DNA of 64,000 nt, taken from contig JYNZ01000003.1 in assembly GCA_001567355.1 (NCBI GenBank), positions 605,793-669,792 of the forward strand. The letters are read 5' to 3'. Made by a program: the position numbers and the translations under genes. Below the pieces are notes generated by a model. It made no database searches, was not told the origin of the DNA, and saw only the letters and a program-made list of their open reading frames with translations. Shown here piece by piece: positions 1-34,501 of this stretch (within the stretch, counting starts at the first letter, position 1; each line of letters starts with the position of its first letter). This DNA comes from a candidate division WS6 bacterium OLB20. GTDB taxonomy: Bacteria; Patescibacteriota; Dojkabacteria; B142; OLB20.

Positions 1-596
1 CAGGTGCTGTAACTTCCCCAGTAGATAACGAGGTTCCCGTCTGTGCCAACACCGAGGCTGTAACGGGTGTTGTCAGGAAAGTCATCATGAACGCCAACAA
101 GCGTTGGTCCCCACGTGGCATTGCCGTTGCTGTCAAAGTGCCAGGCAATGTACTGGTAATTCCAGTCACCATAGACGACATATGCACCACCTGCTCCGTC
201 TTCGCGCACGACCATATCGTTACCGATGACCTCAGTAGGAACGTACAGATCATAGTCAACTCCATAGTCATCTGCGTTGTAACTTGTGTTCCAGAGCAGA
301 TTTCCGTGACGGTCAAACTTCTTCAGAAAGAATCCTTCATATCCTACCTGGTCATAGACCTGCGGGCTGCCCAGAAACACGCCACCATCAGTCGGTGAGA
401 TGTCTGTAGAGCGGGTGCGGGTCACGGGTCCTGCGTTAAATCCGGCAGGAGTTCCTGAGAATACGAGCGTCTGCCCGGCTACCGACGGCTGGTTGTCACG
501 AAGCTGAAGTAGTTGCGAGATCACAACTGCGGCAAGAGCTGTAAGGCACAAAACTGCACCACTGACAATGAATGTTCGGACAGAAAACGACTGCAT
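1..596 (-). CDS. Secreted beta-propeller-repeat (SBBP-like) protein, 5' portion; gene runs off the window start (partial)
   Basis: Manual reverse-complement translation from ATG at complement(594..596) is open for about 198 codons to position 1. It has an N-terminal signal peptide (MQSFSVRTFIVSGAVLCLTALAAVV) and repeated Y/W-x-F-D-x-N/H-G-N-x-x-W motifs typical of PF06739-type beta-propeller repeats. It is absent from the ORF track only because it is truncated. The antisense ORF 87..398 is rejected. Confidence 0.55.
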   Translation of the reverse strand, partial: MQSFSVRTFIVSGAVLCLTALAAVVISQLLQLRDNQPSVAGQTLVFSGTPAGFNAGPVTRTRSTDISPTDGGVFLGSPQVYDQVGYEGFFLKKFDRHGNLLWNTSYNADDYGVDYDLYVPTEVIGNDMVVREDGAGGAYVVYGDWNYQYIAWHFDSNGNATWGPTLVGVHDDFPDNTRYSLGVGTDGNLVIYWGSYST

Positions 597-697: not shown

Positions 698-3600
698 ATG
701 AACTTGAGGACCGCTCTACGTTCTCCACTTATAATCGCTGTGCCGGTTACACTGGCAGCAGTGTTGATCTCCTATGCATACAATCGTCCGACACCAAGAG
801 AACCGGAGGTGTTAAGTTCTCTGACAGCGTCGTGGACTGCAAACGGACTTGGGGTGGAGACGAGTGCGCTTTCTGTAAACATTGCCGGCAATGCCCCAAA
901 CAGCAGAGGCAAAAATGCCGTGCCCGATGGATTCGGGGGTATGTACATGGCCTGGCAGGGCAGCACAGGCTACTCCGGAAGACGTGTCCTATCCGGCGGT
1001 TCTCTGGGATGTACATTCAGCGGATCGTACAATTTTGATTATATCGTCGAAGGCTCAAGCGGGACATTCTTTATTATCGGAGACAGTGGACGCAGGATTT
1101 TTAAATATAACAGCTCCTGCTCGCATCTCTTTGGTGTGAGCGGTATCAATCTTTTCAGTGCCAACCCTACCAGAACACACTCCGGCATACAGGCAGCCCC
1201 TGCGCCCGGTGGAGGAGTAGTACTTGCTGGAGTCAGCGGATCAACAATTTACTCGCAGTACATCAGCAGTGCCGGGGCTCTTGGATTTGGTACAAACGGA
1301 TCGGCACAGTCAGTATCCGGAACAATAACCACTACGGCACTAACGGTTGCACCTGATTCTTCGGCTGGCATGGCCATGTCGTGGCGGACTACAAACGGTG
1401 TCTTCACACAGTACTTAAACAACTCAGGAGCAGCCCAGTGGACCGCCAGCGGAATACAGCTGACAACAAACGGAAGCGATCCAACCATTACGTATAGCGG
1501 CGGGTATCATTTTGTCTCATTCAGAGACAATGTTCTGAACGACCGCAAACTGCAAAAAATCAGTGCGGCAGGAGTGCAGGAGTTCAGCGGAAACGGGATT
1601 GAGGTGATGGACGGACTTGGAATAGGTGCAGCTTATACGCTAACCCCGGTCACAGACACCGGCGGTGTAATAGTCCAGTTTGGAGGTCAAATTGCCAGTG
1701 TCGGACCTGACGGCTCGATCCTTGGTACTCAAACCGGACATGGAAACTACCATGCGTTTCATTTTATTGATTCAAACGATTCCCTGTATGCTGTTGCTCA
1801 CTCAGACTGCGATGTCTCCTCGGGAGGCTGGGATATTACCATGAACCGCTACCGGCTGCCGGATCTATACCCACTTTCAGCTGCGACATGTCTTTCTAAT
1901 GCCACTGCGAATCAGACATATCCGCGGATAATCGGTTCTTCGGGCACATCTGCAATTGTTTACTGGCAGGATGCACGGGCTGGAAACGGAGATATCTATA
2001 CGTCGCGGATATCGCACGGTTCTGTCAATCAGATATTTTCAATCTGGGCTGCCAACTTTCGAAAAACGAATGGTGACAACATCAGGGCAGACCACTGGTT
2101 ACCGCTTTCGGATGCGTATACAAATCCTAATACACTCGGGTCAACATCCACCTCCGAGTTAGTGCGTATCGAAAACAACAACGAATTTGTGGCTGAGTTG
2201 AATATCAACATGTCCTCAGACAGACACTGGTTCAGTTACCAGGCGCTTTATGGAAGCTCTCCAAACAGGGCGTTTGTTGCCGATCTTCTGACACAACCCG
2301 GGGCGGGCACCAGCTACAGTCTGCTGGTAAGAAAAGCCCCGTCAGATACTACTGTCCGTGTATGCCCATTGGCTACCGGTATTGGGGATGTCTCAACAAC
2401 CTGCGCAGGAGGGACTGATTACAACGAATTCTATCCTGAGGTTGCGCTGGTGACGATAGGGGGTGAGGATTACTGGAAGATTGCTAACCTGACAGATAGT
2501 GCTATCGGGGCAATCTCATACCTGATCCCGCCACCCCCCTCCGGTAACGTATATTACGGTATCGACAACTGGGATCCCTTCTTTTATCTGTTTGACATTG
2601 ATACTGCAACATTTTTCGCAGACACCGAACTGACCTATACCGGTCCGGAAACTATTGAGGGAGCCACCTCACTTACCTACCAGCCCCTCACCTGCACACC
2701 ATACACTGTAGCGACACTTGATGGCTGGTCAACATTCCGTCTGGCGACAATTGATCTTGATACCGGAGATGTAACACCGGTATCCAGCGATGTTATGCCA
2801 TTTTCTGATCTGGCATTTCTGCCCGATGGACGGCTGTTCGGCATCAGCGGAGGAGGGGCAAACGGTTATACAGGATCGGTACTTGCCAACAATGAATCAC
2901 TGTACGAAATTGACACTGGCACCTACGCAGTGACCCTGCGGGCAGACCTGAGCAATGGGCTGTACGGCGAGAGCATCGCATATAATCCCGATGACGGATA
3001 TCTGTATCATCTGACAGGCGCTCCGGATAGTGCTGAGGCTCCAATCTTTCAGCGGATAGATGTAAATACATATACAGCAACACCCGTCACATTAACTGGT
3101 GACGTTGTATTTGGAGCACCGATGGGTTTTTACTACGACGATGGTTCGGACCAGTTCTTCTTCAGCGACTGGAACTACGATATGTACACACTGCAGACAG
3201 ACGGGACCGTCGCTTTGCTGCATGACAACATGGATTACCCAATGAAGGCAATGGTTCCGCAGGATGGCTGTACGCTGCCGCCGACACCAACCTATACACC
3301 GACGCCAACGTATACACCGACACCAACTCCGACTCCGACGCCGTCCAGCACCCCGTCAATCTCTGTCACACCAAGTATTACAGGTACACCGACTCCGACA
3401 CCGACTGCATCACCAAGTAACGCACCGACCTATATTCCGCCGAACATTACAACGACCCCGAAACTGCCGACACCTGTTCCGGTCGAAGATACGGACGGTG
3501 ACGGCCTGACAGATGCCGAGGAGCGCGAACTCGGGACAGATCCAAACAATCCTGATACGGACGGTGACGGGTTGTCTGACGGATTTGAAGCGTTTTACAA

Positions 3601-4810
3601 CGATAGCGATACACCACTTAATCCACTGCTGCCACAGACGCAGGAGGGAATACCTGATGGCGAACAGGACTATGACAATGACGGCATCAATAACCTGCTG
3701 GAGCAGCAACTCGGAACGGACCCAGGTGAGAGAGACTCAGACAATGACAAAATCCTGGATGGCGAGGAGTACAGAGGTTGCTTCTTCAAGGAAGACACGA
3801 CAGAATGCGGCTCACGCTCGTTTGAGCCGAGCGACCCGCTTACAAAAGTAAATAATCCTCGTCCAACGCTGATTGCGACCGCGACACCCGCTGTTACACA
3901 GCTGCCTGATACAGGCGCAGAGAGTGTTGACATTATTGAGCTATTAAGGCGGGCGGGACGTGATATTATCCCCGGATTGCTGACCGGGATACTGCTGATG
4001 CTTGCTGCCGGATGGCTGCTCAGCTATCCGCGGGTGATTCTGTACCTCTTCAGGCAGTCAAGGGGCGGTCAGATCAGAGGACTCGTTTATGATCCGTTTG
4101 CCGCAGCACCTGTCGCATTTGCACCAGTCAGCCTGTATGATGATGCCGAGAACCCGGTCGGGAGTGTGATGGCAGACCGTTTTGGCCGATACCGTGTTGC
4201 TCCGGATACGGTATTCAGCTCAGCAGGGGTGACCATGCCAGGATATCTGCATGAGGCACCGCAGACCCACACGGGTGGAGTAACTGATATCGCTCTGGAA
4301 ACAGAACACGAGGCTGTTAGTGCAAAGATCCGTGCGTTCCTTGGTTCATATACCGGCCTGCTTCTTGGTGCAGGACTCGGGATCTCAGTTCTGCTGGTTC
4401 TAACGTTGCAGACACCGGCCGCAGCGATTCTTACAGGGCTGTATCTGGCTGCGCTGCTTCTAAAAGCAAGGTTTTCAACCGGTTACAGCGGCAGTGTCCG
4501 CAGCGCAGACGGACAACCGGCAAAAGGAATTGTACTCAGACTGTTTGACAGCAAGGGATCAGCTGTCATCGACTCATCAGTAACCGACAAACTCAGCAGG
4601 TACAGGCTGCATGCTGCGCCCGGCATCTATCTGCTTGAAATCGCACTTCCTGAATACACGTTTGACCAGAATCAGCACCAGGCGCAGACTCTGACCGAGA
4701 CAGGTGGAAGAAAGATGCTGACAGTAACCATTGAAGCAGACGGAAAGCTCCGGCTTCCACTGCACATTACCCCGGTCAACCAGTCCGGAGGCGGATTTGG
4801 TATGCTTTAG
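698..4810 (+). CDS. Giant (1370 aa) cell-surface protein. It has an N-terminal signal/anchor, a beta-rich repeat region, a Pro-Thr linker, thrombospondin-type-3-like Ca-binding Asp repeats, an LPDTG motif followed by a hydrophobic segment, and then two carboxypeptidase-regulatory-like (Cna-B/CarboxypepD_reg-like) domains separated by further TM segments
   Basis: Single 4.1-kb ORF. Motifs read directly from the translation: PTYTPTPTYTPTPTPTPTP, DTDGDGLTDAEE / DTDGDGLSDGFE / DYDNDGINN / DSDNDKILDGEE, LPDTGAES+IIPGLLTGILLMLAAGWLL, GLVYDPFAAAPVAFAPVSLYDDAENPVGSVMADRFGRYRV and GSVRSADGQPAKGIVLRLFDSKGSAV. Confidence 0.75.
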   Translation: MNLRTALRSPLIIAVPVTLAAVLISYAYNRPTPREPEVLSSLTASWTANGLGVETSALSVNIAGNAPNSRGKNAVPDGFGGMYMAWQGSTGYSGRRVLSGGSLGCTFSGSYNFDYIVEGSSGTFFIIGDSGRRIFKYNSSCSHLFGVSGINLFSANPTRTHSGIQAAPAPGGGVVLAGVSGSTIYSQYISSAGALGFGTNGSAQSVSGTITTTALTVAPDSSAGMAMSWRTTNGVFTQYLNNSGAAQWTASGIQLTTNGSDPTITYSGGYHFVSFRDNVLNDRKLQKISAAGVQEFSGNGIEVMDGLGIGAAYTLTPVTDTGGVIVQFGGQIASVGPDGSILGTQTGHGNYHAFHFIDSNDSLYAVAHSDCDVSSGGWDITMNRYRLPDLYPLSAATCLSNATANQTYPRIIGSSGTSAIVYWQDARAGNGDIYTSRISHGSVNQIFSIWAANFRKTNGDNIRADHWLPLSDAYTNPNTLGSTSTSELVRIENNNEFVAELNINMSSDRHWFSYQALYGSSPNRAFVADLLTQPGAGTSYSLLVRKAPSDTTVRVCPLATGIGDVSTTCAGGTDYNEFYPEVALVTIGGEDYWKIANLTDSAIGAISYLIPPPPSGNVYYGIDNWDPFFYLFDIDTATFFADTELTYTGPETIEGATSLTYQPLTCTPYTVATLDGWSTFRLATIDLDTGDVTPVSSDVMPFSDLAFLPDGRLFGISGGGANGYTGSVLANNESLYEIDTGTYAVTLRADLSNGLYGESIAYNPDDGYLYHLTGAPDSAEAPIFQRIDVNTYTATPVTLTGDVVFGAPMGFYYDDGSDQFFFSDWNYDMYTLQTDGTVALLHDNMDYPMKAMVPQDGCTLPPTPTYTPTPTYTPTPTPTPTPSSTPSISVTPSITGTPTPTPTASPSNAPTYIPPNITTTPKLPTPVPVEDTDGDGLTDAEERELGTDPNNPDTDGDGLSDGFEAFYNDSDTPLNPLLPQTQEGIPDGEQDYDNDGINNLLEQQLGTDPGERDSDNDKILDGEEYRGCFFKEDTTECGSRSFEPSDPLTKVNNPRPTLIATATPAVTQLPDTGAESVDIIELLRRAGRDIIPGLLTGILLMLAAGWLLSYPRVILYLFRQSRGGQIRGLVYDPFAAAPVAFAPVSLYDDAENPVGSVMADRFGRYRVAPDTVFSSAGVTMPGYLHEAPQTHTGGVTDIALETEHEAVSAKIRAFLGSYTGLLLGAGLGISVLLVLTLQTPAAAILTGLYLAALLLKARFSTGYSGSVRSADGQPAKGIVLRLFDSKGSAVIDSSVTDKLSRYRLHAAPGIYLLEIALPEYTFDQNQHQAQTLTETGGRKMLTVTIEADGKLRLPLHITPVNQSGGGFGML

Positions 4811-4879: not shown

Positions 4880-6996
4880 GTGCTTGATACTTTAAATCCG
4901 CCCCAGCGTGAGGCGGTTACAACCACTGAAGGACCTGTTCTGGTGCTTGCCGGCGCAGGCAGCGGTAAAACCAGGGTACTGACCTACCGCATGTTCTACC
5001 TGCTTAAAAAGAACATTGCACGTCCCGAAAACATTCTTGCTGTAACCTTTACCAACAAGGCTGCCGGTGAGATGAAGGATCGTATTGCCAGCCTGCTGCA
5101 GTCAAGCGGTTCTGCCATGTACAACCTTCCCTGGGTGGGGACGTTCCACTCTATATGTGTGCGGCTGCTCAAGGCCAACGCAGAACATATCGGTCTGTCG
5201 CGCGAGTTTACCATCTATGACCGGGCTGACCAGCTTGATGCGGTTAAAGAGGTAATGAAAAAGCTACAGATGGATACTAAAAACATAAAACCCAACGCCG
5301 TTCTAAACTACATCAGCTCGGCCAAGTCGGAACTGATCCCGGCATCAAGATATCCTGAATACGCAGTCGGCTATTTTCAGGACAGAGTTGCTGAAGTATA
5401 TCCCGAGTACCAGAAACTGCTGCGTTCCAACAGCGCTGTTGACTTTGACGATCTCATCATGGAGGCGGTACGGCTGCTTGAGCAGGAAGGTGATCTGCTT
5501 GAAAAGTACCGAACACTGTTTACTCATATTATGGTTGATGAGTACCAGGATACAAACCATGCCCAGTACCGGCTGATCCAGATGCTTGCAGAACGGCACA
5601 AGAATATATGCGTCGTCGGAGACGATGCACAATCGATTTACAGCTTCCGCGGGGCGACGATACAGAACATTCTCAACTTTGAAAAAGACTATCCCGACGC
5701 AAAAGTGATCAAGCTCGAGCAGAACTACCGGTCAACCAAGACTATTCTCGATGCATCAAATCTGGTCATCGCGCTCAACCCCAATCAGAAAAAGAAACAG
5801 CTCTGGACAGAAAACCACAGCGGTGAACCGATTACTGTCTATGAAGCGCTGGATGAAAAGGATGAGGCAGACTGGGTGGCAAAAAAATCAAGGAACTGAA
5901 CAGTTTTGATACTGCAGTCCTATACCGTACAAACGCACAGTCACGCGCACTTGAAGAGGCACTTCTGAGACGGGGGATCAGCTACCAGGTTATCGGCAGC
6001 GTCGAGTTTTACAAGCGCAAGGAGATCAAGGATGTGATGGCATACCTGCGCGTACTGTACAACCCGGCCGACGATATCAGTCTCAAACGTGTGATCAATG
6101 TTCCAAGACGGGGTATCGGCTCCACAACAATTGGCAACGTCGAACGTGAAGCCCTGGCTAACAGGCAGTCGATTATGCCGTACCTGCTCAGCCTTGCTCC
6201 GGAAGAGCTTGCCCGCTGGGGCAAAGCAGTCAGCGAGTTTACTGTCATGATGAAAAAACTGACTGCCATCTCGCAGCAGGAACCCGTGGGTGTTCTGATC
6301 AACGATCTTATCGAGCTGTCGGGCTACCGGCAGTCGCTGGATGACGGTACTGCCGAAAACGAGGCACGTCTTGAGAACATCCGCGAGCTCATCACCGTTG
6401 CTGACCAGTATAAGGAGCTCGATCCGGCAGAAAGCATGGAGCAGTTTCTTGAGGGAGTGTCCCTGATAGAGGGGTACAACAACCGTGATGATGGACCCAG
6501 TGTCAAACTGATGACAGTTCACTCGGCCAAGGGACTGGAGTTTGATAACCTGTTCATCGTAGGTATGGAAGAGGGCATTTTTCCGCACTCTAATGCCTAT
6601 ATAGAGCCCACACAGATGGAAGAGGAACGACGGCTCGCGTATGTAGCAATTACGCGGGCAAAGCAGCAGCTGTATATTGTGCACACGCAGTCACGTACAT
6701 TCTTCGGAAGCAGAAGCAGCAACCCGGTTTCACGCTTTGTCTCTGATATCCCTGATTCGCTTCTCAGGTTTGAGACATTCGGTGGTGTGACCTTTGACGA
6801 TGGCTGGCGCGAAGTCGTCGAGGATGATGATTACCAGCAGGAGTCGTTTATCGAACTTGAGCGCGGTGACAGGGTGGAGCACGACATCTTTGGTGTCGGT
6901 GTCGTCGTCGACTATGACGATTCACTGATCGTAATCGGTTTCAAAGGAGGACAGAAAGAGCTGTCGCGTGAATACGCAAAGCTAAAAAAACTCTAA
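4880..6996 (+). CDS. pcrA: ATP-dependent DNA helicase PcrA/UvrD; one gene split into ORFs 4880..5899 and 6034..6996 by a 1-nt frameshift in an A7 run (5881..5887)
   Basis: N-terminal Walker A (AGAGSGKTRVLTYR) and UvrD motifs. Reading 5881 onward in the +1 frame gives KKIKELNSFDTAVLYRTNAQSRALEEALLRRGISYQVIGSVEFYKRKEIKDVMAYLR, which joins the second ORF seamlessly. An 8th A would restore the frame. Confidence 0.88.
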
Positions 6997-9717: not shown

Positions 9718-10730
9718 CTACACCAGCTTCTTCAGTCTGATCTTCAGTTTCTGCAGTTGAGAAAGTATGCCAAACATGCGGTATTTTGTGCCGTTTAAGA
9801 CCAGCACGCGTGTTTTAGCAAAACAGTGGTCGGTACCGCCAAAGCCGTGCTTGAACGAGCTGATGCTCTCGAGCGGATGACCCTTCGTATAATTGCCGTT
9901 CAGATCGCGCGGGGCAACACCCCAGTGGTCGTAATACCTTCTGCCGAGAGCGGAAGTCATCTTCATCGCCTCCCATTTAAGCATATACCCCGCCTCAAGA
10001 TCCCGGCCTTCTGATGTGACACCTCCGTACAACTCGTAGACCGATATCTCATCAAGCGCGACAAGGTAGGCACCGACAACAGCCCCGTGATGTTCGGCAA
10101 GCAGTATACGAGCAAGGTCCTTCTGCGATAACTGTTCCCATACTTTGAGAAAATAATTCTTGTCGTGCATCACGTAATCCGTGGCCTTAAAGATCTCCTG
10201 CATGACGGTATAGAACGCATCGACTGCGGAAGCATCATGCGTATGAATACTGACGGTCACACCATGACGTTCAGCTTTTTTAATGTTTCTTCTGTACTTT
10301 CCTTTCATGCCTGACCAGACGGCATCTGCACTGACAGTCTCAACAACACTGGTACACTCGGGCTGCACGCGGTAATCGGTTGCAGGCAGGGACTTGGCAA
10401 AGTAACTGTCCTCTTCGTGATCAAACTCAAACAGTACAAAATCACATACACTGTTTGCACTGAGCCAGGTCTTAAGTTCGCGAACTATCTTTCAAAATGA
10501 AGCAGCGGCAGCGACGCCTTTGGTGAATAACCGATCCTCACGCCTGCTGTCTGCCTGATCAGCACCTGCAGGACAGCAATGATCTCATCATCCAGCCGGA
10601 TGATAAACCGCAGCGGTTCCCAGCCGGGACGTTTAACCTCACCCCACGCACTGTGCTGCAGTACATGGCCCTGTGTCAGCTTCCATGCTGCATCATATTC
10701 CTCAAGGTTGTCAGTTATTTTGAGATCCAT
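9718..10730 (-). CDS. FemAB-family aminoacyl-tRNA-dependent transferase (paralog 1), split by a frameshift at a T3/A3 run (10490..10492)
   Basis: N-terminal ORF 10485..10730 and C-terminal ORF 9718..10368 (GTG start) both show FemAB/FemX-like sequence. The downstream frame is open from 10491, so one extra A gives a continuous protein of about 335 aa. Confidence 0.7.
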
Positions 10731-11954
10731 AAATTGGGTTTAATGAAGCGGGCAATACGGACAGCATCGTCAGGAGTGACATTAACCGATGTCGGCAGAT
10801 TAACAATGTGTTTGGCATATAGCTCTGCTTTTGGTGCGCTGCCGGTCTGATAGCGGAAACGCTCCAAGGTACCCTCGGGTGCATAGAGAATGGTCTTATA
10901 CCAGTCCCCGATGACAACATGATTCTTTTTAGCCTGCTGCAGCGCCAGCTGCTGATCATTAACGAGCACAGGAAACCTGAGGTAGTTATGTTCTCCTTCT
11001 GTTTCGTAGGTTATCCCAAGCTCTCTGCTGTAGACCGCTGCTATGATACGCCGGTGAGCGTTCAAATCTCTCAGCTTTGAAAACTGCCGGATACCTAGCC
11101 GGGCCAATGCTCCTGGCATCTGTGCAGGAAACCACGATGGTTTAACCGTCCTGTATTCTTCGTCCTCAATCATATTGCCAAGCATCCCGAAGCGGTGCGC
11201 TATCCATGTCAGAATTCTTCCGGCAGTCAGTTTGCCGATACCAAGATAATAGACTGGAGTAACGATACTCCAGAACACCGGATTCGTCAGAGAAAGAAGC
11301 ACCCGCAACCTGCTGAAGCGGGGAGCAGATGCGACAGACGCCCGTACCTGAGCAACCAGGTTGGTGTCTCTGGTCAGAACCATTCCGCCACGGACGGTGG
11401 AAATGGCTTTTTCGATCCCGAATGTGAGAATCGCGGCATCACCAAGCAGACCAAGTTTGCGTCCGCGCAATGTTCCACCAAGTGTATGGGCAAGGTCTTC
11501 GATGATTTTCACGCCGGGACCGGTAATCTCTTTAACGGCTTCAACATCAGCCGGCATACCGAATGTGTGCTGCACAAGAATGGCGCGCGTACGTTCTGAA
11601 ACTTTGCTTTTAAGATCAATCAGATTGATGTTGAAATTATCATCCGTATCCACATAAACCGGTGTCGCACCAAGCCAGATCACCGGATTAGCGACTACCA
11701 GACAGGTAAATGCCGGCAGAATGACCTCATCACCGGGACCAACACCATAGCTTTGCAGGATGAGATAGAATGCAGAGCGTGCAGAATCAAGAGCAACGGT
11801 GTCAGCGCCATCAAAAAAAATCCGACACCTGCTTTTCAAATGCGGCGACCGGCTCCGGATCATACCACCTCCACGGTGTAACAAGCTGACGCAACGCCTC
11901 TCTTACATCATCGGACTGAGTGTTCGGCGAAGCTGCGATAAATACAGGTCTCAT
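10715..11954 (-). CDS. DegT/DnrJ/EryC1/ArnB-type PLP-dependent sugar aminotransferase; frameshift in A8 run 11813..11820
   Basis: ORF 10715..11884 matches the DegT core (DGADTVALDSARSAFYLILQSYGVGPGDEVILPAFTCLVVANPV). The true N-terminus is found in the other frame from ATG complement(11952..11954): MRPVFIAASPNTQSDDVREALRQLVTPWRWYDPEPVAAFEKQVSDFF. Seven A instead of eight fuses this to ...DGADTVALD. The ATG overlaps the upstream stop as ATGA. Confidence 0.8.
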
Positions 11955-13051
11955 CTGATGGAACGTAATAACGAAAACAGGCGGGACCGCAAAGGCAGAA
12001 CTTTGTCCCAGACCATATATTGTACAGGTTTAAGCGGCAAAGCAAGAATGCCGGCGTGATCAATCCGTACTCCGCCAAATGACAGCTTGGTATCCGAGTA
12101 TCCTTTATGCTGATCACTCCCGGGGATGATTCCCCAGAAATCATACACCTTGCATCCCGCTGCCTTTGCTGCAAGTACAGACTTCCACCTGAGCAGGTAC
12201 ATGGCCTTTACATTCGGGTGCAGGCGGTTGGACCCTGCATAAAAGGATGACGACCAGTAACCGGTGCGCTCCGAAATATTTATCGCAATTGTGTCACCTT
12301 CAAATGCTGTCTCAAACAGACTGACAGCAGCAGTGCCTTTAAACTCCTGCAGCAGTTTCTCAAACGAGGAGAAAGGCCTGATCGGATAACCGCCGGCACG
12401 CTCCTGCATATCCTCAAGCAGGGAGTAGAAGAGCTGCAGTTTTCCTGATATCTGAGGATCATCAGGCAGGTACTCGGTAACACTGACACCCTTGCGCTCT
12501 GCGTAACCGACATTGTAACGGGTATTCTTTTTCATCATCCCCAGGAGCTGCTCTTCGCTCAGGGCAAGATCATACAGCAGTTTGTACCGCGGCTGCATGT
12601 TACGGCCTGTCTTTTTATATCCGTTCTGCAGAAATGCGTTTAGAGCATCCTTGTCCGTAAACGGTTTCAGATTTTCGCTCAGATCTCCTTCGACGTACGA
12701 GCCAAGCTTCGGTTCAATCTCAATCGCAAAGCAGCCCAGATCAGAAGCGACCGAGCGGAGATGTGCAGTAAACTCTTTCAGGTGGGCAAACAGATTTTCA
12801 GTTGATGCAAAAACAGGTCCGTGCGGAACATACGCAAGGTTTCCAAGCGGACCGGCTGGTTTAATGAGCATCTGCGCAGTAAGTAACGTTCTGCCATCCT
12901 CGACCAGAGCAAGCCTGTGCGGCGTCCAGCCCTCAGTGCGTTTAACCTCACCCCACTGCCAGTAGTTAAGAATGTCACCCCACGGGGAACTGTCGATAAA
13001 CCTGTTCCATTCGGGATCAGGATCGTTGTAGACACGCAGTTCAGTTGCCAA
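11951..13051 (-). CDS. FemAB-family aminoacyl-tRNA-dependent transferase (paralog 2), intact
   Basis: 366-aa ORF with FemA/FemX-like sequence throughout. It overlaps the downstream degT start by 4 nt and the upstream GT-C gene by 11 nt. Confidence 0.8.
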   Translation of the reverse strand: MATELRVYNDPDPEWNRFIDSSPWGDILNYWQWGEVKRTEGWTPHRLALVEDGRTLLTAQMLIKPAGPLGNLAYVPHGPVFASTENLFAHLKEFTAHLRSVASDLGCFAIEIEPKLGSYVEGDLSENLKPFTDKDALNAFLQNGYKKTGRNMQPRYKLLYDLALSEEQLLGMMKKNTRYNVGYAERKGVSVTEYLPDDPQISGKLQLFYSLLEDMQERAGGYPIRPFSSFEKLLQEFKGTAAVSLFETAFEGDTIAINISERTGYWSSSFYAGSNRLHPNVKAMYLLRWKSVLAAKAAGCKVYDFWGIIPGSDQHKGYSDTKLSFGGVRIDHAGILALPLKPVQYMVWDKVLPLRSRLFSLLRSIR

Positions 13052-14726
13052 GATACTCCAGTCTTACGTAAATACTGTATACAGATCCGTCACTCATCTC
13101 TTTTTGTGCAGCCAGAAAGAAGCGGTCATTATTCTCGACATACTCGCGTAACTGTTCATACTTATCCGCCCATATCTCGCCGGCCTCAGGACTGTCAGTG
13201 ACTATTACAAAATCAGCTTCGTCAACCTCGGCCTTGCCTGTTACGAGGTCAGTATAGCGCGAAAACTCATCAGACGAGGAAATAGTTACACCCTGCTGGG
13301 ATGCATACCAGATCAGCTGTGCATCGTTAAACAGCGGCTGCTCTGCGGTGTTGTAAACACGCGGCTGTTCATCCTCCAGAGGAATGTAATAGCTGAGCAC
13401 AAACGAGTACGGCTCACGGAACGCCTCACTGCGGGTATATGGACCGGTCGCCTCGTTAAGTCCTGTTCGCGGAAGAGCGGGCATGAACGTGGCAACACTC
13501 TGCAGAAACGGGTACACGCAAAGTGCAGCTGTTATCAGGGTACCGGTCATCCAGATGCGCGAACGGGAACCGGTGCGAACCGCCACATATGCTGCAGCAA
13601 GTATCCAGAATGCAATCACCGGTACAAAGTAGCGCGCTGTTTTACTCTCGTTTAGTGTCAGAGAGATCAGCATTGGAAGCGGCGTCAATATAATCAGTGC
13701 AAGATTGCTTCCCAGAAGTCCGTCAACGAAGCGGTTAAGAGAGGAAAACCTGTGCCTGACACTCCTGATAACAGTACTGCGTGCTGCTGCTGCACCTGCA
13801 AAAACCTGTAACAGCATAAAGACTGTCAGCGGCCAGCCGATAGTCCAGGTGACAATCACGTACCAGAAGCGAACTGCGGTCACCGGTGAACTCACCGGCC
13901 CGAGAGAGTAGTACTGCGCCAGCTCACCACTGCTCGTAAATCTCGCAAACTCAAGGTATGTTGCGAAATTGGATGCATACCAGGTAAGTGTAAACGGAAT
14001 AAACCCGATCAGTGTAATGACAAAGTATTCAACATATGTGTGCCAGCTTTTCTTCTGCCGCAACTGCCAGTAGATAAAGTAGGTCAGGGGAACAACCAGA
14101 TAGACCGGCATCAGAAACCTCAACAGAAACGCAAGCGAAAGCAGAACACCAGTTGCAAAGAACAGTGTCCGCGAAGATGACGAACGGTAACGTACAAACA
14201 GATAGGTGAGCAGCAGTACAAAAAAGGTCTGCAGCGTCTCACTCATGTATAACCTTGCAAACCCGTACGCACCAGGCATGACAGAGTAGAGGACAAGCGC
14301 CAGCAGTCCGATTGCATTTGCCTGACGTGCCGGAAGCCCGAAAAACAATTTGCGTGCCAGCAGAAAAATCAGGATGCCGTTAACTGCTAGCACCAGCAGA
14401 TTCATCATCAGTGCCGTATTCTCGGATACGCCAAAGATCAGAAATGCAGGTACAGATAGTGCTGCAAATAACGGTGTTCTTGGAAAACGGTCCGGATGAA
14501 TAAACATGTTCTCCCACGTATTGTATGCACCAACAAAATCACCGCGTGACAGTGGTTCGTAGAGCTCAAATGTTCCCTGCAGAAACCGGGCATCGTCACC
14601 GATAAATGGAAGCCGCTGATCTGCAGTTATCCAGAAGACATTGATAAAGAAGAAGAGAGCGGTGACAATAGTCACCGTAGTGAACACATGTCTGTTGCCT
14701 GTCAGTTGTGAAAACAGTCTGCGCAT
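13041..14726 (-). CDS. GT-C glycosyltransferase of the ArnT/PMT (GT39/GT83-like) family, multi-TM
   Basis: 561 aa with at least 10 predicted TM helices. The first extracytoplasmic loop has DDARFLQGTFELYEPLSRGDF, like the DE-x-R-Y-A-E motif of ArnT/PMT_2 enzymes. Confidence 0.75.
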   Translation of the reverse strand: MRRLFSQLTGNRHVFTTVTIVTALFFFINVFWITADQRLPFIGDDARFLQGTFELYEPLSRGDFVGAYNTWENMFIHPDRFPRTPLFAALSVPAFLIFGVSENTALMMNLLVLAVNGILIFLLARKLFFGLPARQANAIGLLALVLYSVMPGAYGFARLYMSETLQTFFVLLLTYLFVRYRSSSSRTLFFATGVLLSLAFLLRFLMPVYLVVPLTYFIYWQLRQKKSWHTYVEYFVITLIGFIPFTLTWYASNFATYLEFARFTSSGELAQYYSLGPVSSPVTAVRFWYVIVTWTIGWPLTVFMLLQVFAGAAAARSTVIRSVRHRFSSLNRFVDGLLGSNLALIILTPLPMLISLTLNESKTARYFVPVIAFWILAAAYVAVRTGSRSRIWMTGTLITAALCVYPFLQSVATFMPALPRTGLNEATGPYTRSEAFREPYSFVLSYYIPLEDEQPRVYNTAEQPLFNDAQLIWYASQQGVTISSSDEFSRYTDLVTGKAEVDEADFVIVTDSPEAGEIWADKYEQLREYVENNDRFFLAAQKEMSDGSVYSIYVRLEYLGN

Positions 14727-32017: not shown

Positions 32018-32125
32018 AGAACTTGATTGAATGATGAATTATACACGCACATCAGCATTACTGCTATCTGGATAGATGACACCAACCTCTGTTATTCTGA
32101 AGTAATATTCTTTACCTGCTACTTC

Positions 32126-34501
32126 ATGCTGCTACGTGTATTTATTGCCGGCATTCTTGTGTTTGCACCGTTGGTCACACCATCTGTCACGGCTGCACAG
32201 GGAAACGTTGCTGCAAACTCAGGTCAGAAGCCAAATGTCATACTAATACTTGCGGATGACCTTGGATATGCAGAGATTGAGCCGTTCGGCGGAACGTTTG
32301 CAAAGACTCCAAACCTGGCACAGCTTCGCAGAGAAGGCATGAAGTTCAACAGATTCTATTCAAATCCGCTCTGCGGACCGACGCGCTCGTCGTTAATGAC
32401 CGGGCTGTACTCTCAGCGGTTCGGATTCCGGGTAAACTGTGATGTCAGTACCGCTTCACCAAAGGGAATGCCGACAGAGGTGAGTACGCTCGGCAACATC
32501 ATGAGGAGTGCGGGATATAGCACCTGGCATGTCGGTAAGTGGCATCTCGGTTATGACGCAGATACAAATTATCCGACAAAGCGCGGCTTTGATTACTACC
32601 TGGGCCCCTTTGAGGAACAGACTGCCTGGCAGCGGCGAAACCCCACGCTACACGAAAACAACAGCAAACGGCAGTTTTCGGGGCACCCCACTGAAATATA
32701 TGGCAATAAGGTTGTAGATATCATCAGACAGAATGCCGGTACCGGCAAACCCTTTTTTATTAATTACTGGGATACTGCACCGCACGGTCCTAACCAGCCG
32801 CTGCCACGATGGCTGAATGGCTACCAGGATAAAAATTCCGTCTACACAAAGTACGCAGCAGAAATAACCGGCCTGGACGAACAGGTAGGTAAAATTGTTA
32901 CAGCATTAAAAGAGACCGGACAGTGGAACAACACAGTTCTTGTGTTTATGAGCGACAATGGTATTCCGTCGTCTCTGCTGACATTTTCAAACAACGGCGG
33001 GTTACGGGGAAACAAATCAGGAGTATTTGAGGGAGGAGTACGTTCACCGATGCTTATCAGCTGGCCCGCAGCCGTTGCAGCCGGCTCAGAGACATCCCTG
33101 GTCAGTCATGTAACAGACATTGCGCCAACATTTTCAGAGATCGCCGGCGTCACGGGTGCAGCCAGTGACGGGCGCAGTATTGTTCCTACACTGCGGGGGC
33201 AGGCACAGCAGCCTCGAGATATCTTCTTCGAAAACAAGACACTTGATCTTCTGAACGGAGCATTTATCTCTGGTGAGTGGAAGTATGTCTGGAATAAAGG
33301 AAATGAGTATCTGTTTAATCTGTCGACAGACCCTGGAGAAAAAACCGATCTCAAAAACAGCAGACCGGTTGAGTTTACAACCCTGAAAACGCGCTACTGG
33401 GGCACGAGAACAGCTCTTGCTGAGGTGCCGTATCAGTTTACACGATCAAGCAGAGGAACGGCATCCTTTCCGGTTAAGACTATCAGTGCAAAAAGCGGAT
33501 CAGATATCGGGTACCTTGCCGGCAGCTCTGTTCTCAATATTTCGGGATGGGAGTTTTCATTTGACAGCTGGATCAGGCTGGATGGTAACGGAGGCAATAA
33601 GCGCAGAAACATAATCAACTCATTCGGTAACTTCAGATTTGAGGTGATGGAAAACGGCAGACCCCGTGCCACCTGGAAGGAGACAGCAAAAAACGGGACA
33701 GTAACCGAACGCTTTCTTGAGGTGGGGACAGCGCTCAGGAACGACACCTGGCAACATATCGCGCTTGTACTGGATGCTACACCATCACACGCTAAAAGCG
33801 GTGCCGTCAGAATCTATATTGATGGCAAAAATGCAGGCAGCGGAAAACGCACTGGTGATATTATCACAACGGGACAGTTTACAATTGCAAACACACCCTC
33901 GACACAGCGACCACTTCTGGGAGAGCTGTATCAGCCGCGCATCAGTACAGCTGCATGGTTGCCTGCTGAGGTAGCGTGGTTTGCTGGCAGTAAACCGATT
34001 GCCTTAGGTGCCGGTGGCAACACAGCACAGGCGGGGTTTCCGCAGTTCGGGCTTGATGTTCTGCCGTTAACCGGCGCAGATTACGATAATTACGGATCGT
34101 ATACGTATACACTTCTTTCATCAGACGGTGAAGTGGAGTACAACTATTCGGTTACGATTCTTGAAAATAACTTTGTCGGGTATCCTGATGAAAACGGCGT
34201 GATTGTGCTGCCGTTTGATCAGCCGCAGAACATCACACTCAGTGTAACAAATGGTATCGATACCCTGACCCGCGAATTGAGTCCAGAAGATTTTGCTACA
34301 GCAGGCGGTCATATTATTGATCGGGGGCTGCTTAAGAATCTTGACCCCGAGTCGTCTCCAGACTCTGCGCCCGACTCGTATATGGACCCGGTCAGAGCTG
34401 GCGGTCAGCTTGTCCTGATATTGTGCCTTGTTGTCCTCGGTGGATTTGGAATCTATCTGATGATGACAACACGTGATGCTGACGAGATTCAGGCAAAGTA
34501 G
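32126..34501 (+). CDS. Cys-type sulfatase (arylsulfatase family) fused to a LamG/concanavalin-like domain, with a C-terminal TM anchor
   Basis: PNVILILADDLGYAE...CGPTRSSLMTG is the sulfatase signature (C-x-P-x-R). The signal peptide starts at the internal ATG 32126 (MLLRVFIAGILVFAPLVTPSVTAAQG). The LamG-like region is SFDSWIRLDG...WQHIALVLD...VRIYIDGK. The C-terminal TM is LVLILCLVVLGGFGIYLMM. Confidence 0.8.
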   Translation: MLLRVFIAGILVFAPLVTPSVTAAQGNVAANSGQKPNVILILADDLGYAEIEPFGGTFAKTPNLAQLRREGMKFNRFYSNPLCGPTRSSLMTGLYSQRFGFRVNCDVSTASPKGMPTEVSTLGNIMRSAGYSTWHVGKWHLGYDADTNYPTKRGFDYYLGPFEEQTAWQRRNPTLHENNSKRQFSGHPTEIYGNKVVDIIRQNAGTGKPFFINYWDTAPHGPNQPLPRWLNGYQDKNSVYTKYAAEITGLDEQVGKIVTALKETGQWNNTVLVFMSDNGIPSSLLTFSNNGGLRGNKSGVFEGGVRSPMLISWPAAVAAGSETSLVSHVTDIAPTFSEIAGVTGAASDGRSIVPTLRGQAQQPRDIFFENKTLDLLNGAFISGEWKYVWNKGNEYLFNLSTDPGEKTDLKNSRPVEFTTLKTRYWGTRTALAEVPYQFTRSSRGTASFPVKTISAKSGSDIGYLAGSSVLNISGWEFSFDSWIRLDGNGGNKRRNIINSFGNFRFEVMENGRPRATWKETAKNGTVTERFLEVGTALRNDTWQHIALVLDATPSHAKSGAVRIYIDGKNAGSGKRTGDIITTGQFTIANTPSTQRPLLGELYQPRISTAAWLPAEVAWFAGSKPIALGAGGNTAQAGFPQFGLDVLPLTGADYDNYGSYTYTLLSSDGEVEYNYSVTILENNFVGYPDENGVIVLPFDQPQNITLSVTNGIDTLTRELSPEDFATAGGHIIDRGLLKNLDPESSPDSAPDSYMDPVRAGGQLVLILCLVVLGGFGIYLMMTTRDADEIQAK

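What the first reader, a model, noticed from the sequence alone, without database searches (positions are those of the whole stretch)
698..4810. 1370-aa surface protein with an internal LPDTG-plus-TM signal followed by extra Cna-B/CarboxypepD_reg-like domains and Ca-binding TSP3-type repeats
LPDTG is followed by a hydrophobic segment (IIPGLLTGILLMLAAGWLL). That is the pattern of a sortase sorting signal. It sits about 310 aa before the C-terminus, however. Two carboxypeptidase-regulatory-like beta-sandwich domains follow, each succeeded by further hydrophobic helices. Upstream are four DxDxDG calcium-binding repeats (DTDGDGLTDAEE and three others) and a (PT)n linker. Three explanations are possible. 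Sortase cleavage could release an N-terminal 1050-aa adhesin-like unit and leave a membrane-embedded C-terminal module. The protein could be a non-sortase polytopic architecture. Or two genes could have been fused by an indel. No sortase gene is in the window.
Basis: partly seen in the sequence, partly recalled or inferred. Interest (0 to 1): 0.55.

Follow-up and report, generated by a model that had tools for sequence, protein, structure and literature searches.

The report
Surface protein with internal sortase motif
A giant surface protein of an uncultured ultra-small (CPR, WS6/Dojkabacteria) bacterium has a conserved sortase-type LPDTG motif that sits in front of a 300-residue, three-helix membrane module instead of at the protein's end. 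That module appears to be a widespread C-terminal anchor of CPR surface proteins, and I found no description of it.

Summary
ORF 698..4810 (+) encodes 1370 aa with LPDTG at residues 1069-1073. A hydrophobic helix, two CarboxypepD_reg beta-sandwiches and a helical hairpin follow, and a PT linker and TSP3 repeats lie upstream.

It is one real gene, not an indel fusion. The identical protein occurs in three assemblies. Full-length paralogs in the same genome (candidate division WS6 bacterium OLB20) and more than 100 other CPR proteins have the same continuous layout.

The last ~300 aa are a CPR-wide C-terminal module: TM1, a basic cluster, a beta-sandwich, a TM hairpin and a second beta-sandwich. 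It also exists as a stand-alone gene. Charge distribution places both beta-sandwiches in the cytoplasm.

LPxTG is not a general feature of the module. It is kept in all four OLB20 paralogs (below 50% identity, unconserved flanks). It recurs in at least seven lineages, 12 of 130 proteins, against 0.5 expected from shuffles. In two proteins it lies 1-3 residues before TM1, as in a canonical signal.

The most likely reading is a sortase-type sorting signal whose "tail" is a whole membrane protein. Cleavage is unproven. No sortase gene lies in the ~79 kb examined, and the rest of the genome could not be searched. One neighbouring paralog is split by a frameshift just upstream of its LPDTG.

The parts
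698..4810 (+). Complete gene for the 1370-aa surface protein (includes the stop codon).
   Evidence: ORF; the identical product is called on 3 contigs; the organism is candidate division WS6 bacterium OLB20.
698..784 (+). N-terminal signal peptide or signal anchor (aa 1-29, MNLRTALRSPLIIAVPVTLAAVLISYAYN).
   Evidence: hydrophobicity window aa 5-29 with basic residues at positions 4 and 8. Whether it is cleaved was not determined.
806..2032 (+). Head, part 1 (aa 37-445): degenerate ~55-60-aa repeats of the type '...DIYAQRVNASG..QWT.NG', which look like a beta-propeller.
   Evidence: 25-28% identity in several registers to uncharacterised proteins that carry FlgD_ig and Por_Secre_tail domains. 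No Pfam hit.
2078..2548 (+). Conserved two-cysteine domain (aa 461-617, '...VRVCP..A......TTC.GG.......IGGEDYWKI.N').
   Evidence: the same block occurs in P0002, P0008, P0027, P0043, P0054, P0056, P0061, P0066, P0112, P0119, L005 and L073.
2555..3277 (+). Head, part 2 (aa 620-860), a second repeat or beta-propeller-like region.
   Evidence: collinear with P0002 and P0008. A similar block occurs in P0030. No Pfam hit.
3278..3487 (+). Pro/Thr-rich linker (aa 861-930).
   Evidence: Read directly from the sequence. Aligned with the paralog linker.
3488..3775 (+). Calcium-binding TSP3-type repeats (aa 931-1026): DTDGDG, DTDGDG, DYDNDG and DSDNDK.
   Evidence: PF18884 at 41.3 bits; motif positions; partial hits to the CglD and MtsD TSP3 regions only.
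3776..3901 (+). Cys box (GCFFKEDTTECGSRSFEPSDPL) and a Pro/Thr linker (aa 1027-1068).
   Evidence: 'EGC.Y...TT.C....F.P..PL' is conserved in the four OLB20 paralogs and in P0027, P0056, P0061 and P0119.
3902..3916 (+). LPDTG, the putative sortase recognition and cleavage motif (aa 1069-1073).
   Evidence: Conserved as LP(D/Q)TG in all four OLB20 paralogs with unconserved flanks. Enriched upstream of the module family-wide. TIGR01167 scores 14.2 bits on the excised segment, below the 15.9-bit cut-off.
3917..4075 (+). Juxtamembrane amphipathic stretch (AESVDIIELLRRAGRD), TM1 with the YPR motif (IIPGLLTGILLMLAAGWLLSYPRVILYL) and a basic cluster (FRQSRGGQI). aa 1074-1126.
   Evidence: hydrophobicity; alignment to the family consensus 'YPRxxLYAxxWxRxRKKxxPWGIVYD'; mean net charge after TM1 is +4.3 over 62 proteins.
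4070..4297 (+). First CarboxypepD_reg / transthyretin-like beta-sandwich (aa 1125-1200), predicted cytoplasmic.
   Evidence: PF13620; all 18 aligned members hit it. SdrD B domain and NOMO are the closest solved relatives. The topology is an inference.
4337..4465 (+). TM2-TM3 helical hairpin (aa 1214-1256).
   Evidence: aligned with the family's 'G..FS..A....SP...N......Y..Q' hairpin; the flanks are net positive on both sides.
4481..4753 (+). Second CarboxypepD_reg-like beta-sandwich (aa 1262-1352), predicted cytoplasmic.
4754..4807 (+). C-terminal polar tail ending GGGFGML. A terminal 'FG'-type motif recurs in the family.
   Evidence: tails end in ..FGML..FGALAA..FGTLGG..FGA..FGYLK..FGVI..PFG and ..PF.
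1..596 (-). 5' end of the divergently transcribed paralog (1008-aa ORF plus 288-aa ORF, TR69_WS6001000993). The rest lies upstream of the window, at L001 5981-9899.
   Evidence: It has the same stalk, LPDTG and module architecture, and is split by a frameshift just upstream of LPDTG.

Best explanation
This is one intact gene of the CPR bacterium 'candidate division WS6 (Dojkabacteria) bacterium OLB20'. It encodes a large adhesin-like surface protein.

Architecture: an N-terminal Sec signal; a lineage-specific head of about 830 aa; and a stalk made of a PT linker, calcium-binding TSP3 repeats and a Cys box. It ends in a C-terminal membrane module that is shared by many CPR surface proteins and also exists as a free-standing gene.

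The module, in order: a juxtamembrane helix, TM1 with a YPR motif, a basic cluster, a transthyretin-like beta-sandwich, a TM2/TM3 hairpin, a second beta-sandwich, and a short tail. By the positive-inside rule the head is outside the cell and both beta-sandwiches are cytoplasmic.

In this protein and its three paralogs, an LP(D/Q)TG motif is maintained by selection exactly at the junction between stalk and module.

Proposed mechanism (inferred, not shown):
1. TM1 and the basic cluster act as the hydrophobic stop-transfer and charged retention element of a Gram-positive-type cell-wall sorting signal.
2. A sortase cleaves between T1072 and G1073.
3. The ~1,040-residue ectodomain is transferred to the peptidoglycan cross-bridge.
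4. The 298-residue three-helix module (G1073 to the C-terminus) stays in the membrane as the leaving group.
For: Single gene:
- The identical 1370-aa product is on 3 contigs from different assemblies.
- Paralog P0002 is collinear over residues 5-1357, with LPQTG at the same residue 1069.
- There is no room for, or sign of, a second start: TM1 ends at aa 1117 and the domain begins at aa 1125.

Module family:
- An exhaustive phmmer search with aa 1041-1370 gave 407 hits. Many cover the whole module at the extreme C-terminus of otherwise unrelated proteins of 500-4000 aa, and stand-alone forms of 280-400 aa also appear.
- 77 loci were found in GTDB genomes of Magasanik-, Uhr-, Falkow-, Campbell-, Nomura- and Buchananbacteria, Saccharibacteria and Dojkabacteria.
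- All 18 aligned members hit CarboxypepD_reg.

Topology:
- Mean net charge over 62 proteins is -1.5 before TM1, +4.3 after TM1, +2.5 before TM2 and +1.4 after TM3.
- Stand-alone forms start directly with an uncharged N-terminus, then TM1, then RRRR.

Motif:
- LP(D/Q)TG is present in all four OLB20 paralogs, which are below 50% identical, inside an otherwise unconserved Pro/Thr linker.
- 12 of 130 module proteins carry strict LPxTG just upstream, against a shuffle mean of 0.54 and maximum of 4. The density is about 11 times that in the rest of the same proteins.
- These 12 fall into at least 7 unrelated head types.
- In L003 and P0121 the layout is 'LPETG-K-[hydrophobic]-KDRKK' and 'LPFTG-NLR-[hydrophobic]-KKEKK'. 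That is a canonical tripartite signal, followed directly by the module.
- The excised T segment's only NCBIfam hit is TIGR01167 LPXTG_anchor, at 14.2 bits against a 15.9-bit cut-off.

Context:
- Two FemAB-family genes, which build peptidoglycan cross-bridges, lie 5-8 kb downstream.
- A sortase family is reported in more than half of CPR genomes and is near-ubiquitous in Microgenomates (PMC6744442).
Against: - No sortase gene lies in the window or in the reachable flanks, about 79 kb in all. None lies next to any of the 77 related loci either. The rest of the OLB20 genome could not be searched.
- Sixteen partly charged residues separate LPDTG from TM1, and the spacer is up to ~60 residues in some relatives. 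This is longer than in classical signals.
- The curated LPXTG_anchor and Gram_pos_anchor models are not reached: 14.2 bits against 15.9, and 12 against 20.
- About 90% of module-bearing proteins have no LPxTG, so the module clearly works as a plain anchor without sortase.
- All close full-length relatives are paralogs from one genome. No true orthologs were found.
- CarboxypepD_reg/SdrD_B-type domains are normally extracytoplasmic, so the cytoplasmic placement rests on the charge rule only.
- The AlphaFold model was unusable, with pLDDT 37.
Confidence: 0.45

Rival explanations
1. The protein is a non-processed polytopic anchor. It stays in one piece, with an extracellular adhesin head wired through TM1 to two cytoplasmic beta-sandwich domains. 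The LPxTG in the linker is either not used by a sortase, or is conserved for another reason: a linker or hinge requirement, or recognition by a different enzyme such as the extracellular transglutaminase-like Cys enzyme encoded next to the paralog.
For: - Most family members (about 118 of 130) lack any LPxTG and must function this way.
- No sortase lies in the ~79 kb examined.
- The spacer between motif and TM1 is non-canonical, and scores against the curated anchor models are sub-threshold.
- A signal-peptide-bearing, C-terminally anchored Transglut_core protein starts 6 nt after the paralog's module gene. A homologue sits beside the module gene in L073.
Against: - It does not explain why exactly L-P-x-T-G is invariant in four paralogs of about 32-44% identity while the surrounding linker has diverged.
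- It does not explain why the motif recurs upstream of TM1 in at least 7 unrelated head types at 11-fold excess.
- It does not explain why some relatives show the full canonical LPxTG-hydrophobic-basic arrangement.
- The transglutaminase association holds in only 1 of the 77 other loci, L073.
Confidence: 0.38
2. The motif is an evolutionary relic. An ancestral surface protein with a canonical C-terminal LPxTG signal was fused to a stand-alone module gene, or the module's TM1 replaced the signal's helix. The motif persists without present function.
For: - Stand-alone module genes exist (P0077, P0128, P0041, L034).
- Canonical-looking junctions occur in L003 and P0121.
- Fission and fusion are evidently possible, as the 1008 + 288 aa paralog shows.
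Against: A functionless pentapeptide would not stay intact in four paralogs whose flanking linker residues have been randomised. It would also not be independently present in many head types.
Confidence: 0.1
3. The ORF is an artefact: two genes (an LPxTG-anchored adhesin and a separate membrane protein) joined by a sequencing or assembly indel near nt 3950.
For: - The same genome region holds two frameshifted genes. pcrA is broken at an A7 run at nt 5881-5887, and the neighbouring paralog is annotated as 1008 + 288 aa.
- So indels, real or erroneous, do occur here.
Against: - The identical 1370-aa product is in three assemblies.
- The continuous architecture recurs in P0002, P0008 and more than 100 other CPR proteins.
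- In the split paralog the break lies upstream of LPDTG, and LPDTG reads in frame with the module. The ancestral state there was therefore also a single ORF.
- Only 7 residues lie between the end of TM1 and the start of the first domain, with no start codon context.
Confidence: 0.02
4. The LPDTG is a chance match with no significance.
For: - LPxTG occurs by chance at about 7e-5 per residue in these proteins.
- Another chance-looking LPRTG sits inside a PMT_2 membrane protein in the window.
Against: - The motif is at the same aligned position in four paralogs.
- 12 were observed against 0.54 expected, and no shuffle exceeded 4.
Confidence: 0.03

Closest known systems
Gram-positive LPXTG cell-wall sorting signal (sortase A-type substrates; TIGR01167 / PF00746)
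   Same: It has an LPxTG pentapeptide on the extracellular side, then a hydrophobic membrane-spanning helix, then a cluster of basic residues. The host is a monoderm, peptidoglycan-containing organism with FemAB-type cross-bridge genes nearby.
   Different: - The signal is not at the C-terminus. About 250 further residues follow the basic cluster: two beta-sandwich domains and a TM hairpin.
- A 16-residue charged spacer lies between motif and helix.
- Scores against the curated models are below cut-off.
- No sortase has been identified.
Other C-terminal sorting signals cleaved by dedicated enzymes (PEP-CTERM/exosortase, PGF-CTERM/archaeosortase, GlyGly-CTERM/rhombosortase, MYXO-CTERM)
   Same: They share the tripartite logic of a motif, a TM helix and a basic tail at the end of secreted proteins (background from bioRxiv 10.1101/2023.06.07.544157, listed).
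   Different: By definition all of these are short and lie at the extreme C-terminus. None is known to carry a folded polytopic module after the basic cluster (my own knowledge; no counter-example turned up).
SdrD / Cna-B-type stalk domains and CarboxypepD_reg (PF13620) transthyretin-like domains
   Same: The two soluble domains of the module match PF13620 in all 18 aligned members, and often SdrD_B, NOMO and PEGA as well. The closest solved sequence is the SdrD B domain.
   Different: In staphylococcal adhesins these domains form the external stalk upstream of LPXTG. Here they lie after the membrane helix and are predicted to be cytoplasmic.
Myxococcus CglD / MtsD TSP3-repeat adhesion proteins (NF033765, NF047639)
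   Same: Both have calcium-binding thrombospondin type-3 repeats in a cell-surface adhesion protein.
   Different: Only the ~110-residue TSP3 region matches, at 43 bits against a 400-bit cut-off. It is not a member of either family.
Sortase leaving-group peptide ('C-pep') signalling in Streptococcus gordonii (my own knowledge, not checked here)
   Same: The concept that the membrane-embedded fragment left after sortase cleavage has a function of its own.
   Different: There the fragment is a peptide of about 30 residues. Here it would be a 298-residue three-helix protein, equivalent to a free-standing gene family.

Membership tests
LPXTG cell-wall sorting signal (sortase substrate) | An LPXTG pentapeptide | tested here: met
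   LPDTG at aa 1069-1073. It is LP(D/Q)TG in all four OLB20 paralogs.
LPXTG cell-wall sorting signal (sortase substrate) | A hydrophobic membrane helix closely following the motif | tested here: inconclusive
   The helix is present (aa 1090-1117) but comes after a 16-residue partly charged spacer. The spacing is canonical, 1-3 residues, in relatives L003 and P0121.
LPXTG cell-wall sorting signal (sortase substrate) | A positively charged segment after the helix | tested here: met
   R1113, R1119 and R1122 in FRQSRGG. The family mean net charge here is +4.3.
LPXTG cell-wall sorting signal (sortase substrate) | The signal lies at the extreme C-terminus of the precursor | tested here: not met
   About 250 residues, with two domains and two more TM helices, follow the basic cluster.
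LPXTG cell-wall sorting signal (sortase substrate) | Reaches the curated score of TIGR01167 or PF00746 | tested here: not met
   There is no hit on the whole protein. The excised segment scores 14.2 bits against 15.9 (TIGR01167) and 12 against 20 (PF00746).
LPXTG cell-wall sorting signal (sortase substrate) | A sortase is encoded in the same genome | not testable with these tools
   None in the 64-kb window or the reachable flanks, about 79 kb. The literature reports sortase in more than half of CPR genomes (PMC6744442).
LPXTG cell-wall sorting signal (sortase substrate) | Cleavage between T and G, with linkage to peptidoglycan | not testable with these tools
   This needs an experiment.
CPR C-terminal 3-TM / two-beta-sandwich module (defined here; no curated model found) | TM1 with a YPR motif, followed by a basic cluster and 'WG(I/V)VYD' leading into beta-sandwich 1 | tested here: met
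   The target reads SYPRVILYLFRQSRGGQIRGLVYD, a weaker version of the consensus YPRxxLYAxxWxRxRKKxxPWGIVYD.
CPR C-terminal 3-TM / two-beta-sandwich module (defined here; no curated model found) | Full-length collinear similarity over the ~300-aa module located at the C-terminus | tested here: met
   Single-stretch phmmer matches cover query residues ~2-320 at the C-termini of P0002 (1e-29), P0008 (3e-16), P0023, P0026, P0027, P0030 and others.
CPR C-terminal 3-TM / two-beta-sandwich module (defined here; no curated model found) | A TM2/TM3 hairpin between two CarboxypepD_reg-like domains | tested here: met
CarboxypepD_reg (PF13620) | Reaches the Pfam gathering score | tested here: met
   37.7 bits against 32.3 in two stretches, and 42.5 bits on the excised module.
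Bacterial TSP3 repeat (PF18884) | Reaches the Pfam gathering score | tested here: met
   41.3 bits against 25 in three stretches.
CglD / MtsD gliding and cohesion adhesins (NF033765, NF047639) | Reaches the equivalog cut-off | tested here: not met
   43 bits against 400, and 22 against 800. Only the TSP3 region matches.

The most novel reading that the evidence does not exclude
The sorting signal is itself a protein. The gene would make a pro-protein that a sortase splits at LPDT|G into two products. One is a wall-linked ~1,040-residue adhesin. The other is a 298-residue three-helix membrane protein with two cytoplasmic transthyretin-like domains, the same entity that other CPR bacteria encode as a free-standing gene. 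This would tie surface display of each adhesin molecule, one for one, to the release of a cytoplasm-facing membrane component that could report or organise surface assembly. It would also break the rule that LPXTG-type signals are short and terminal.
Probability: 0.3. Interest if true: 0.75.

Novelty: new variant of a known kind. Interest (0 to 1): 0.6.

Why it matters
CPR/Patescibacteria live attached to other cells, and how their surface proteins are anchored is largely unknown.

This locus exposes a C-terminal membrane module found on many giant CPR surface proteins across at least eight CPR lineages. I found no curated model or paper that describes it. Its predicted layout is unusual, with transthyretin-like beta-sandwiches on the cytoplasmic side.

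In a subset of these proteins, including four paralogs of one Dojkabacteria genome, a selectively maintained LPxTG sits at the junction. If sortase uses it, this would be, to my knowledge, the first sorting signal whose leaving group is a full polytopic protein. It would also give a testable handle on wall-anchoring in CPR bacteria.

If sortase does not use it, the module is still a useful marker for annotating CPR surface proteins. It also warns that LPxTG-based predictors, which require a C-terminal position, will miss or mis-split such genes, as happened with the neighbouring paralog.

Tried and rejected
- The word-index homolog search with the C-terminal 330 aa found nothing. With the 18-sequence profile it found only the neighbouring 288-aa paralog. 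With the full protein it found only distant head-repeat relatives, not the paralogs. All three searches were thereby used.
The 5-sequence alignment worked.
- I tried to reach the P0002/P0008 locus of OLB20 to look for a sortase next to those paralogs. The exact look-up returned 'not on record'.
- JGI metagenome scans with P0002 and with a head alignment found no relatives. No true orthologs are therefore available.
- I searched for sortase with S. aureus SrtA (sequence from memory) by phmmer, and with a TLxTC-type regex, over all ORFs of the window and 79 of the loci held at that point. Nothing credible came up. This probe is weak for divergent CPR sortases.
- The supplement of PMC6744442 was searched for OLB20 and the sortase family, with no usable entry.
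- An AlphaFold2 run on the permitted two-sequence alignment gave pLDDT 36.9. Only the secondary-structure order was consistent with the domain scheme, so no fold search was run.
- I considered the transglutaminase-like neighbour as a general partner of the module. A homologue is present near only 1 of the 77 other loci, L073, so I did not adopt this.
- Literature searches for internal LPXTG signals, or for this module in CPR, found no description.

Full report
**1. The observation**

The ORF at 698..4810 (+) is real and encodes 1370 aa. LPDTG occupies residues 1069-1073 (nt 3902-3916), and 297 residues follow it.

Hydrophobic segments lie at aa 5-29, 1089-1117 and 1214-1256. Pfam finds TSP3_bac (41.3 bits, three stretches from aa 931) and CarboxypepD_reg (37.7 bits, two stretches) and nothing else. 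NCBIfam matches only the TSP3 region of CglD and MtsD, far below cut-off.

- Three repeats are strict DxDxDG and one is DSDNDK.
- Sixteen partly charged residues (AESVDIIELLRRAGRD) separate LPDTG from the helix.
- Only the first beta-sandwich is followed by hydrophobic helices.

No sortase-like ORF is in the window.

**2. Organism and neighbourhood**

The exact protein is called on three contigs: two Logan assemblies from 2024-series runs and one contig of 0.2-1 Mb. The neighbouring 288-aa protein is NCBI TR69_WS6001000993 of 'candidate division WS6 bacterium OLB20'. The genome is therefore a Dojkabacteria/CPR MAG.

The window also carries dnaA, dnaN, rpoB, two FemAB-family genes and a PMT_2 glycosyltransferase.

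Just upstream lies a paralog, transcribed divergently. Its first 596 nt are window 1-596 on the minus strand. It is annotated as a 1008-aa TSP3 protein plus a 288-aa CarboxypepD_reg protein.

Translating the junction shows that the frame of the 288-aa gene reads '...PRTDTARPQVGLLPDTGDLQSS...' upstream of its annotated start. The paralog therefore has the same LPDTG at the same place. It is split by a frameshift 15-45 nt before the motif.

The conceptually repaired paralog aligns with the target from the PT linker to the second beta-sandwich: 37% identity over 463 residues, E 2e-65. The heads are unrelated.

**3. The C-terminal module is a family**

An exhaustive phmmer search with aa 1041-1370 gave 407 hits. 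Generic multi-repeat CarboxypepD_reg proteins are one class. The other consists of single-stretch matches to the whole module at the extreme C-terminus of proteins of 500-4000 aa with unrelated heads, together with free-standing proteins of 280-400 aa.

The alignment gives this consensus: juxtamembrane helix; TM1 ending in 'YPRxxLYAxxWxRxRKKxxPWGIVYD'; beta-sandwich; 'R.NL..IN' followed by the TM2-'SP...N'-TM3 hairpin; 'G.V.DS..G....GAFVR.FD..E.RQ.DVQMTD..GRY.F' in the second beta-sandwich; then a polar tail that often ends in FG.

All 18 aligned members hit PF13620, and many also hit SdrD_B, NOMO, PEGA or DUF1416. The closest solved sequences are the SdrD B domain and NOMO.

A scan of GTDB genomes found 77 loci in Magasanik-, Uhr-, Falkow-, Campbell-, Nomura- and Buchananbacteria, Saccharibacteria and Dojkabacteria. 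Some ~1-Mb MAGs among them are labelled 'Gammaproteobacteria', which is probably a mislabel.

I found no curated model or paper describing this module.

**4. Topology (inference)**

Over 62 proteins the mean net charge is -1.5 before TM1, +4.3 in the 13 residues after it, +2.5 before TM2 and +1.4 after TM3. The TM2-TM3 loop is about 5 residues. Free-standing members begin with an uncharged N-terminus, then TM1, then RRRR or KRRH.

By the positive-inside rule the head is outside and both beta-sandwiches are cytoplasmic. This is unusual for this fold and needs a test. Only its helix and strand order agrees with the scheme.

**5. Is the LPxTG meaningful?**

P0002 (1391 aa, LPQTG) and P0008 (1287 aa, LPQTG) are also OLB20 proteins, TR69_WS6001000378 and ...372, on the same 744,746-bp contig. 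OLB20 therefore has at least four paralogs.

The target and P0002 are collinear over their whole length at 31.7% identity, and the motif is at residue 1069 in both. The linker residues on either side are not conserved among the four.

Family-wide, 12 of 130 module-bearing proteins have strict LPxTG within 132 residues upstream of the module anchor. Composition-preserving shuffles give a mean of 0.54 and never more than 4. The density is about 11 times that in the rest of the same proteins (first seen). The twelve fall into at least seven unrelated head types.

In L003 and P0121 (DUF4215-type Cys-repeat giants, the latter from a Dojkabacteria MAG) the arrangement is 'LPETG-K-hydrophobic-KDRKK' and 'LPFTG-NLR-hydrophobic-KKEKK', running straight into the module. 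That is a canonical tripartite sorting signal with a protein appended.

Against this, about 90% of members lack the motif, including 54 of the 55 GTDB loci where a module ORF could be delineated. The module evidently works as a plain anchor. On the excised segment of the target, the curated anchor models score 14.2 against 15.9 bits (TIGR01167) and 12 against 20 (PF00746). These are suggestive but sub-threshold.

**6. Sortase**

No sortase was found in any of the following:
- the window;
- the gene tables covering ~13 kb to the left and ~1.7 kb to the right of the window;
- the flanks of the 77 related loci, by a weak probe.

The rest of the genome was out of reach. The literature reports a sortase family in more than half of CPR genomes, near-ubiquitous in Microgenomates (PMC6744442), and sortases in complete Peregrinibacteria and Microgenomates genomes. 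The decisive test remains open.

**7. Fusion artefact?**

This is rejected for the target, for these reasons:
- three assemblies agree;
- full-length paralogs and more than 100 homologues are continuous;
- the split paralog's LPDTG is in frame with its module, so a single ORF is the ancestral state there too.

The region does contain two frameshifted genes: the paralog, and pcrA at an A7 run at nt 5881-5887. Both frameshifts are also present in the independent Logan assemblies. The paralog's split is present in the NCBI record as well.

**8. Verdict**

The gene is a real CPR surface adhesin-like protein. It is anchored by a widespread three-helix, two-beta-sandwich C-terminal module that I found described nowhere.

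Its internal LPDTG is a selectively maintained, sortase-type motif at the ectodomain-module junction. I consider sortase processing, with the module as leaving group, the most likely mechanism at about 0.45. An unprocessed polytopic anchor is the main rival at about 0.38.

It is a new variant of a known kind. It is moderately to highly interesting because it contradicts the 'short, terminal' definition of sorting signals and gives a handle on CPR surface biology.

Noticed in passing
window 4880-6996 (+); frame change at the A7 run, nt 5881-5887: The pcrA/uvrD-type helicase is split into 339-aa and 320-aa ORFs by a one-base frameshift in a homopolymer. The same split is called in the independent Logan assemblies. 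It is therefore probably real (a pseudogene, a two-piece gene or slippage) and not an assembly error.
   Followed up: partly
window 1-596 (-), continuing in L001 5981-9899: The divergent paralog is annotated as 1008 aa + 288 aa (TR69_WS6001000993). A frameshift 15-45 nt upstream of its LPDTG separates the adhesin part from the module. The split is present in NCBI and in two Logan assemblies. It could be a pseudogene, a natural fission into a secreted head plus a stand-alone module, or a recoding site.
   Followed up: partly
L001 4190-5974 (-), outside the window, 6 nt downstream of the 288-aa gene: A 594-aa protein with a signal peptide, a Transglut_core domain (Cys/His/Asp) and a C-terminal TM plus basic tail. 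This is an extracellular, membrane-tethered transglutaminase-like enzyme in the same operon as the paralog. A strong homologue (E 6e-111) lies 1.2 kb from the module gene in L073. Among the 77 other loci, this was the only one with such a neighbour.
   Followed up: partly
window 4754-4807, and the C-termini of P0002, P0008, P0025, P0026, P0027, P0038, P0054, P0061 and others: Many family members end in a short motif '(K/P/G)FG(x)1-4' after a polar low-complexity spacer (GGGFGML, AFGALAA, RFGTLGG, NFGA, KFGYLK, SPFG). This is a conserved extreme-C-terminal tag of unknown role.
   Followed up: no
P0038 aa 504, P0043 aa 1020, P0103 aa 2019, P0079 aa 8 (156-164 residues upstream of the module anchor): A second subgroup carries (L/I)P(E/Q/L)TG at the start of a ~110-residue Cys-containing domain that precedes TM1. 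Other members have non-matching sequences at that position, such as 'EPKECIV'. It is unclear whether these are functional sites or remnants.
   Followed up: no
window 32027-34501 (+): An 824-aa sulfatase + Laminin_G_3 protein ends in a TM helix with a charged tail and has LPLTG about 145 residues before its C-terminus. This is a second protein in the window with an LPxTG well upstream of a C-terminal anchor. It is not statistically remarkable on its own.
   Followed up: no
window 9718-10368 (-) and 11951-13051 (-): Two FemAB-family genes (peptidoglycan interpeptide-bridge formation) lie 5-8 kb downstream of the target, next to a DegT aminotransferase and a PMT_2 glycosyltransferase. They are consistent with a Gram-positive-type wall that could accept sortase substrates.
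   Followed up: no
window 2078-2548 (aa 461-617); also P0027, P0043, P0054, P0056, P0061, P0066, P0112, P0119, L005, L073: A small two-cysteine domain ('Y.L(Y/L)V(P/R)K....VR.CP.A..L..V...C..G.......(I/V).G.DYW.(I/V).N') recurs in many otherwise different CPR surface proteins and has no Pfam model.
   Followed up: no
L009, L012, L015, L021, L023, L026, L027 and others: Many MAGs titled 'uncultured Gammaproteobacteria bacterium' (binchicken co-assemblies; two are complete ~0.9-1.0 Mb chromosomes) carry this CPR-type module. Their taxonomic labels are probably wrong.
   Followed up: no
L034 3221-5634: In a Saccharimonadales MAG, a free-standing module gene (310 aa) overlaps by 4 nt (ATGA) the end of a PMT_2/ArnT-like membrane glycosyltransferase gene. 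This suggests translational coupling between the module and wall or glycan modification. A PMT_2 gene is also in the window, at 13041-14726.
   Followed up: no
window 806-2032 (aa 37-445): The head contains degenerate ~55-60-residue repeats related to '...DIYAQRVNASG..QWT.NGV.L' repeats of uncharacterised proteins carrying T9SS Por_Secre_tail / FlgD_ig domains. This repeat family has no Pfam model.
   Followed up: partly
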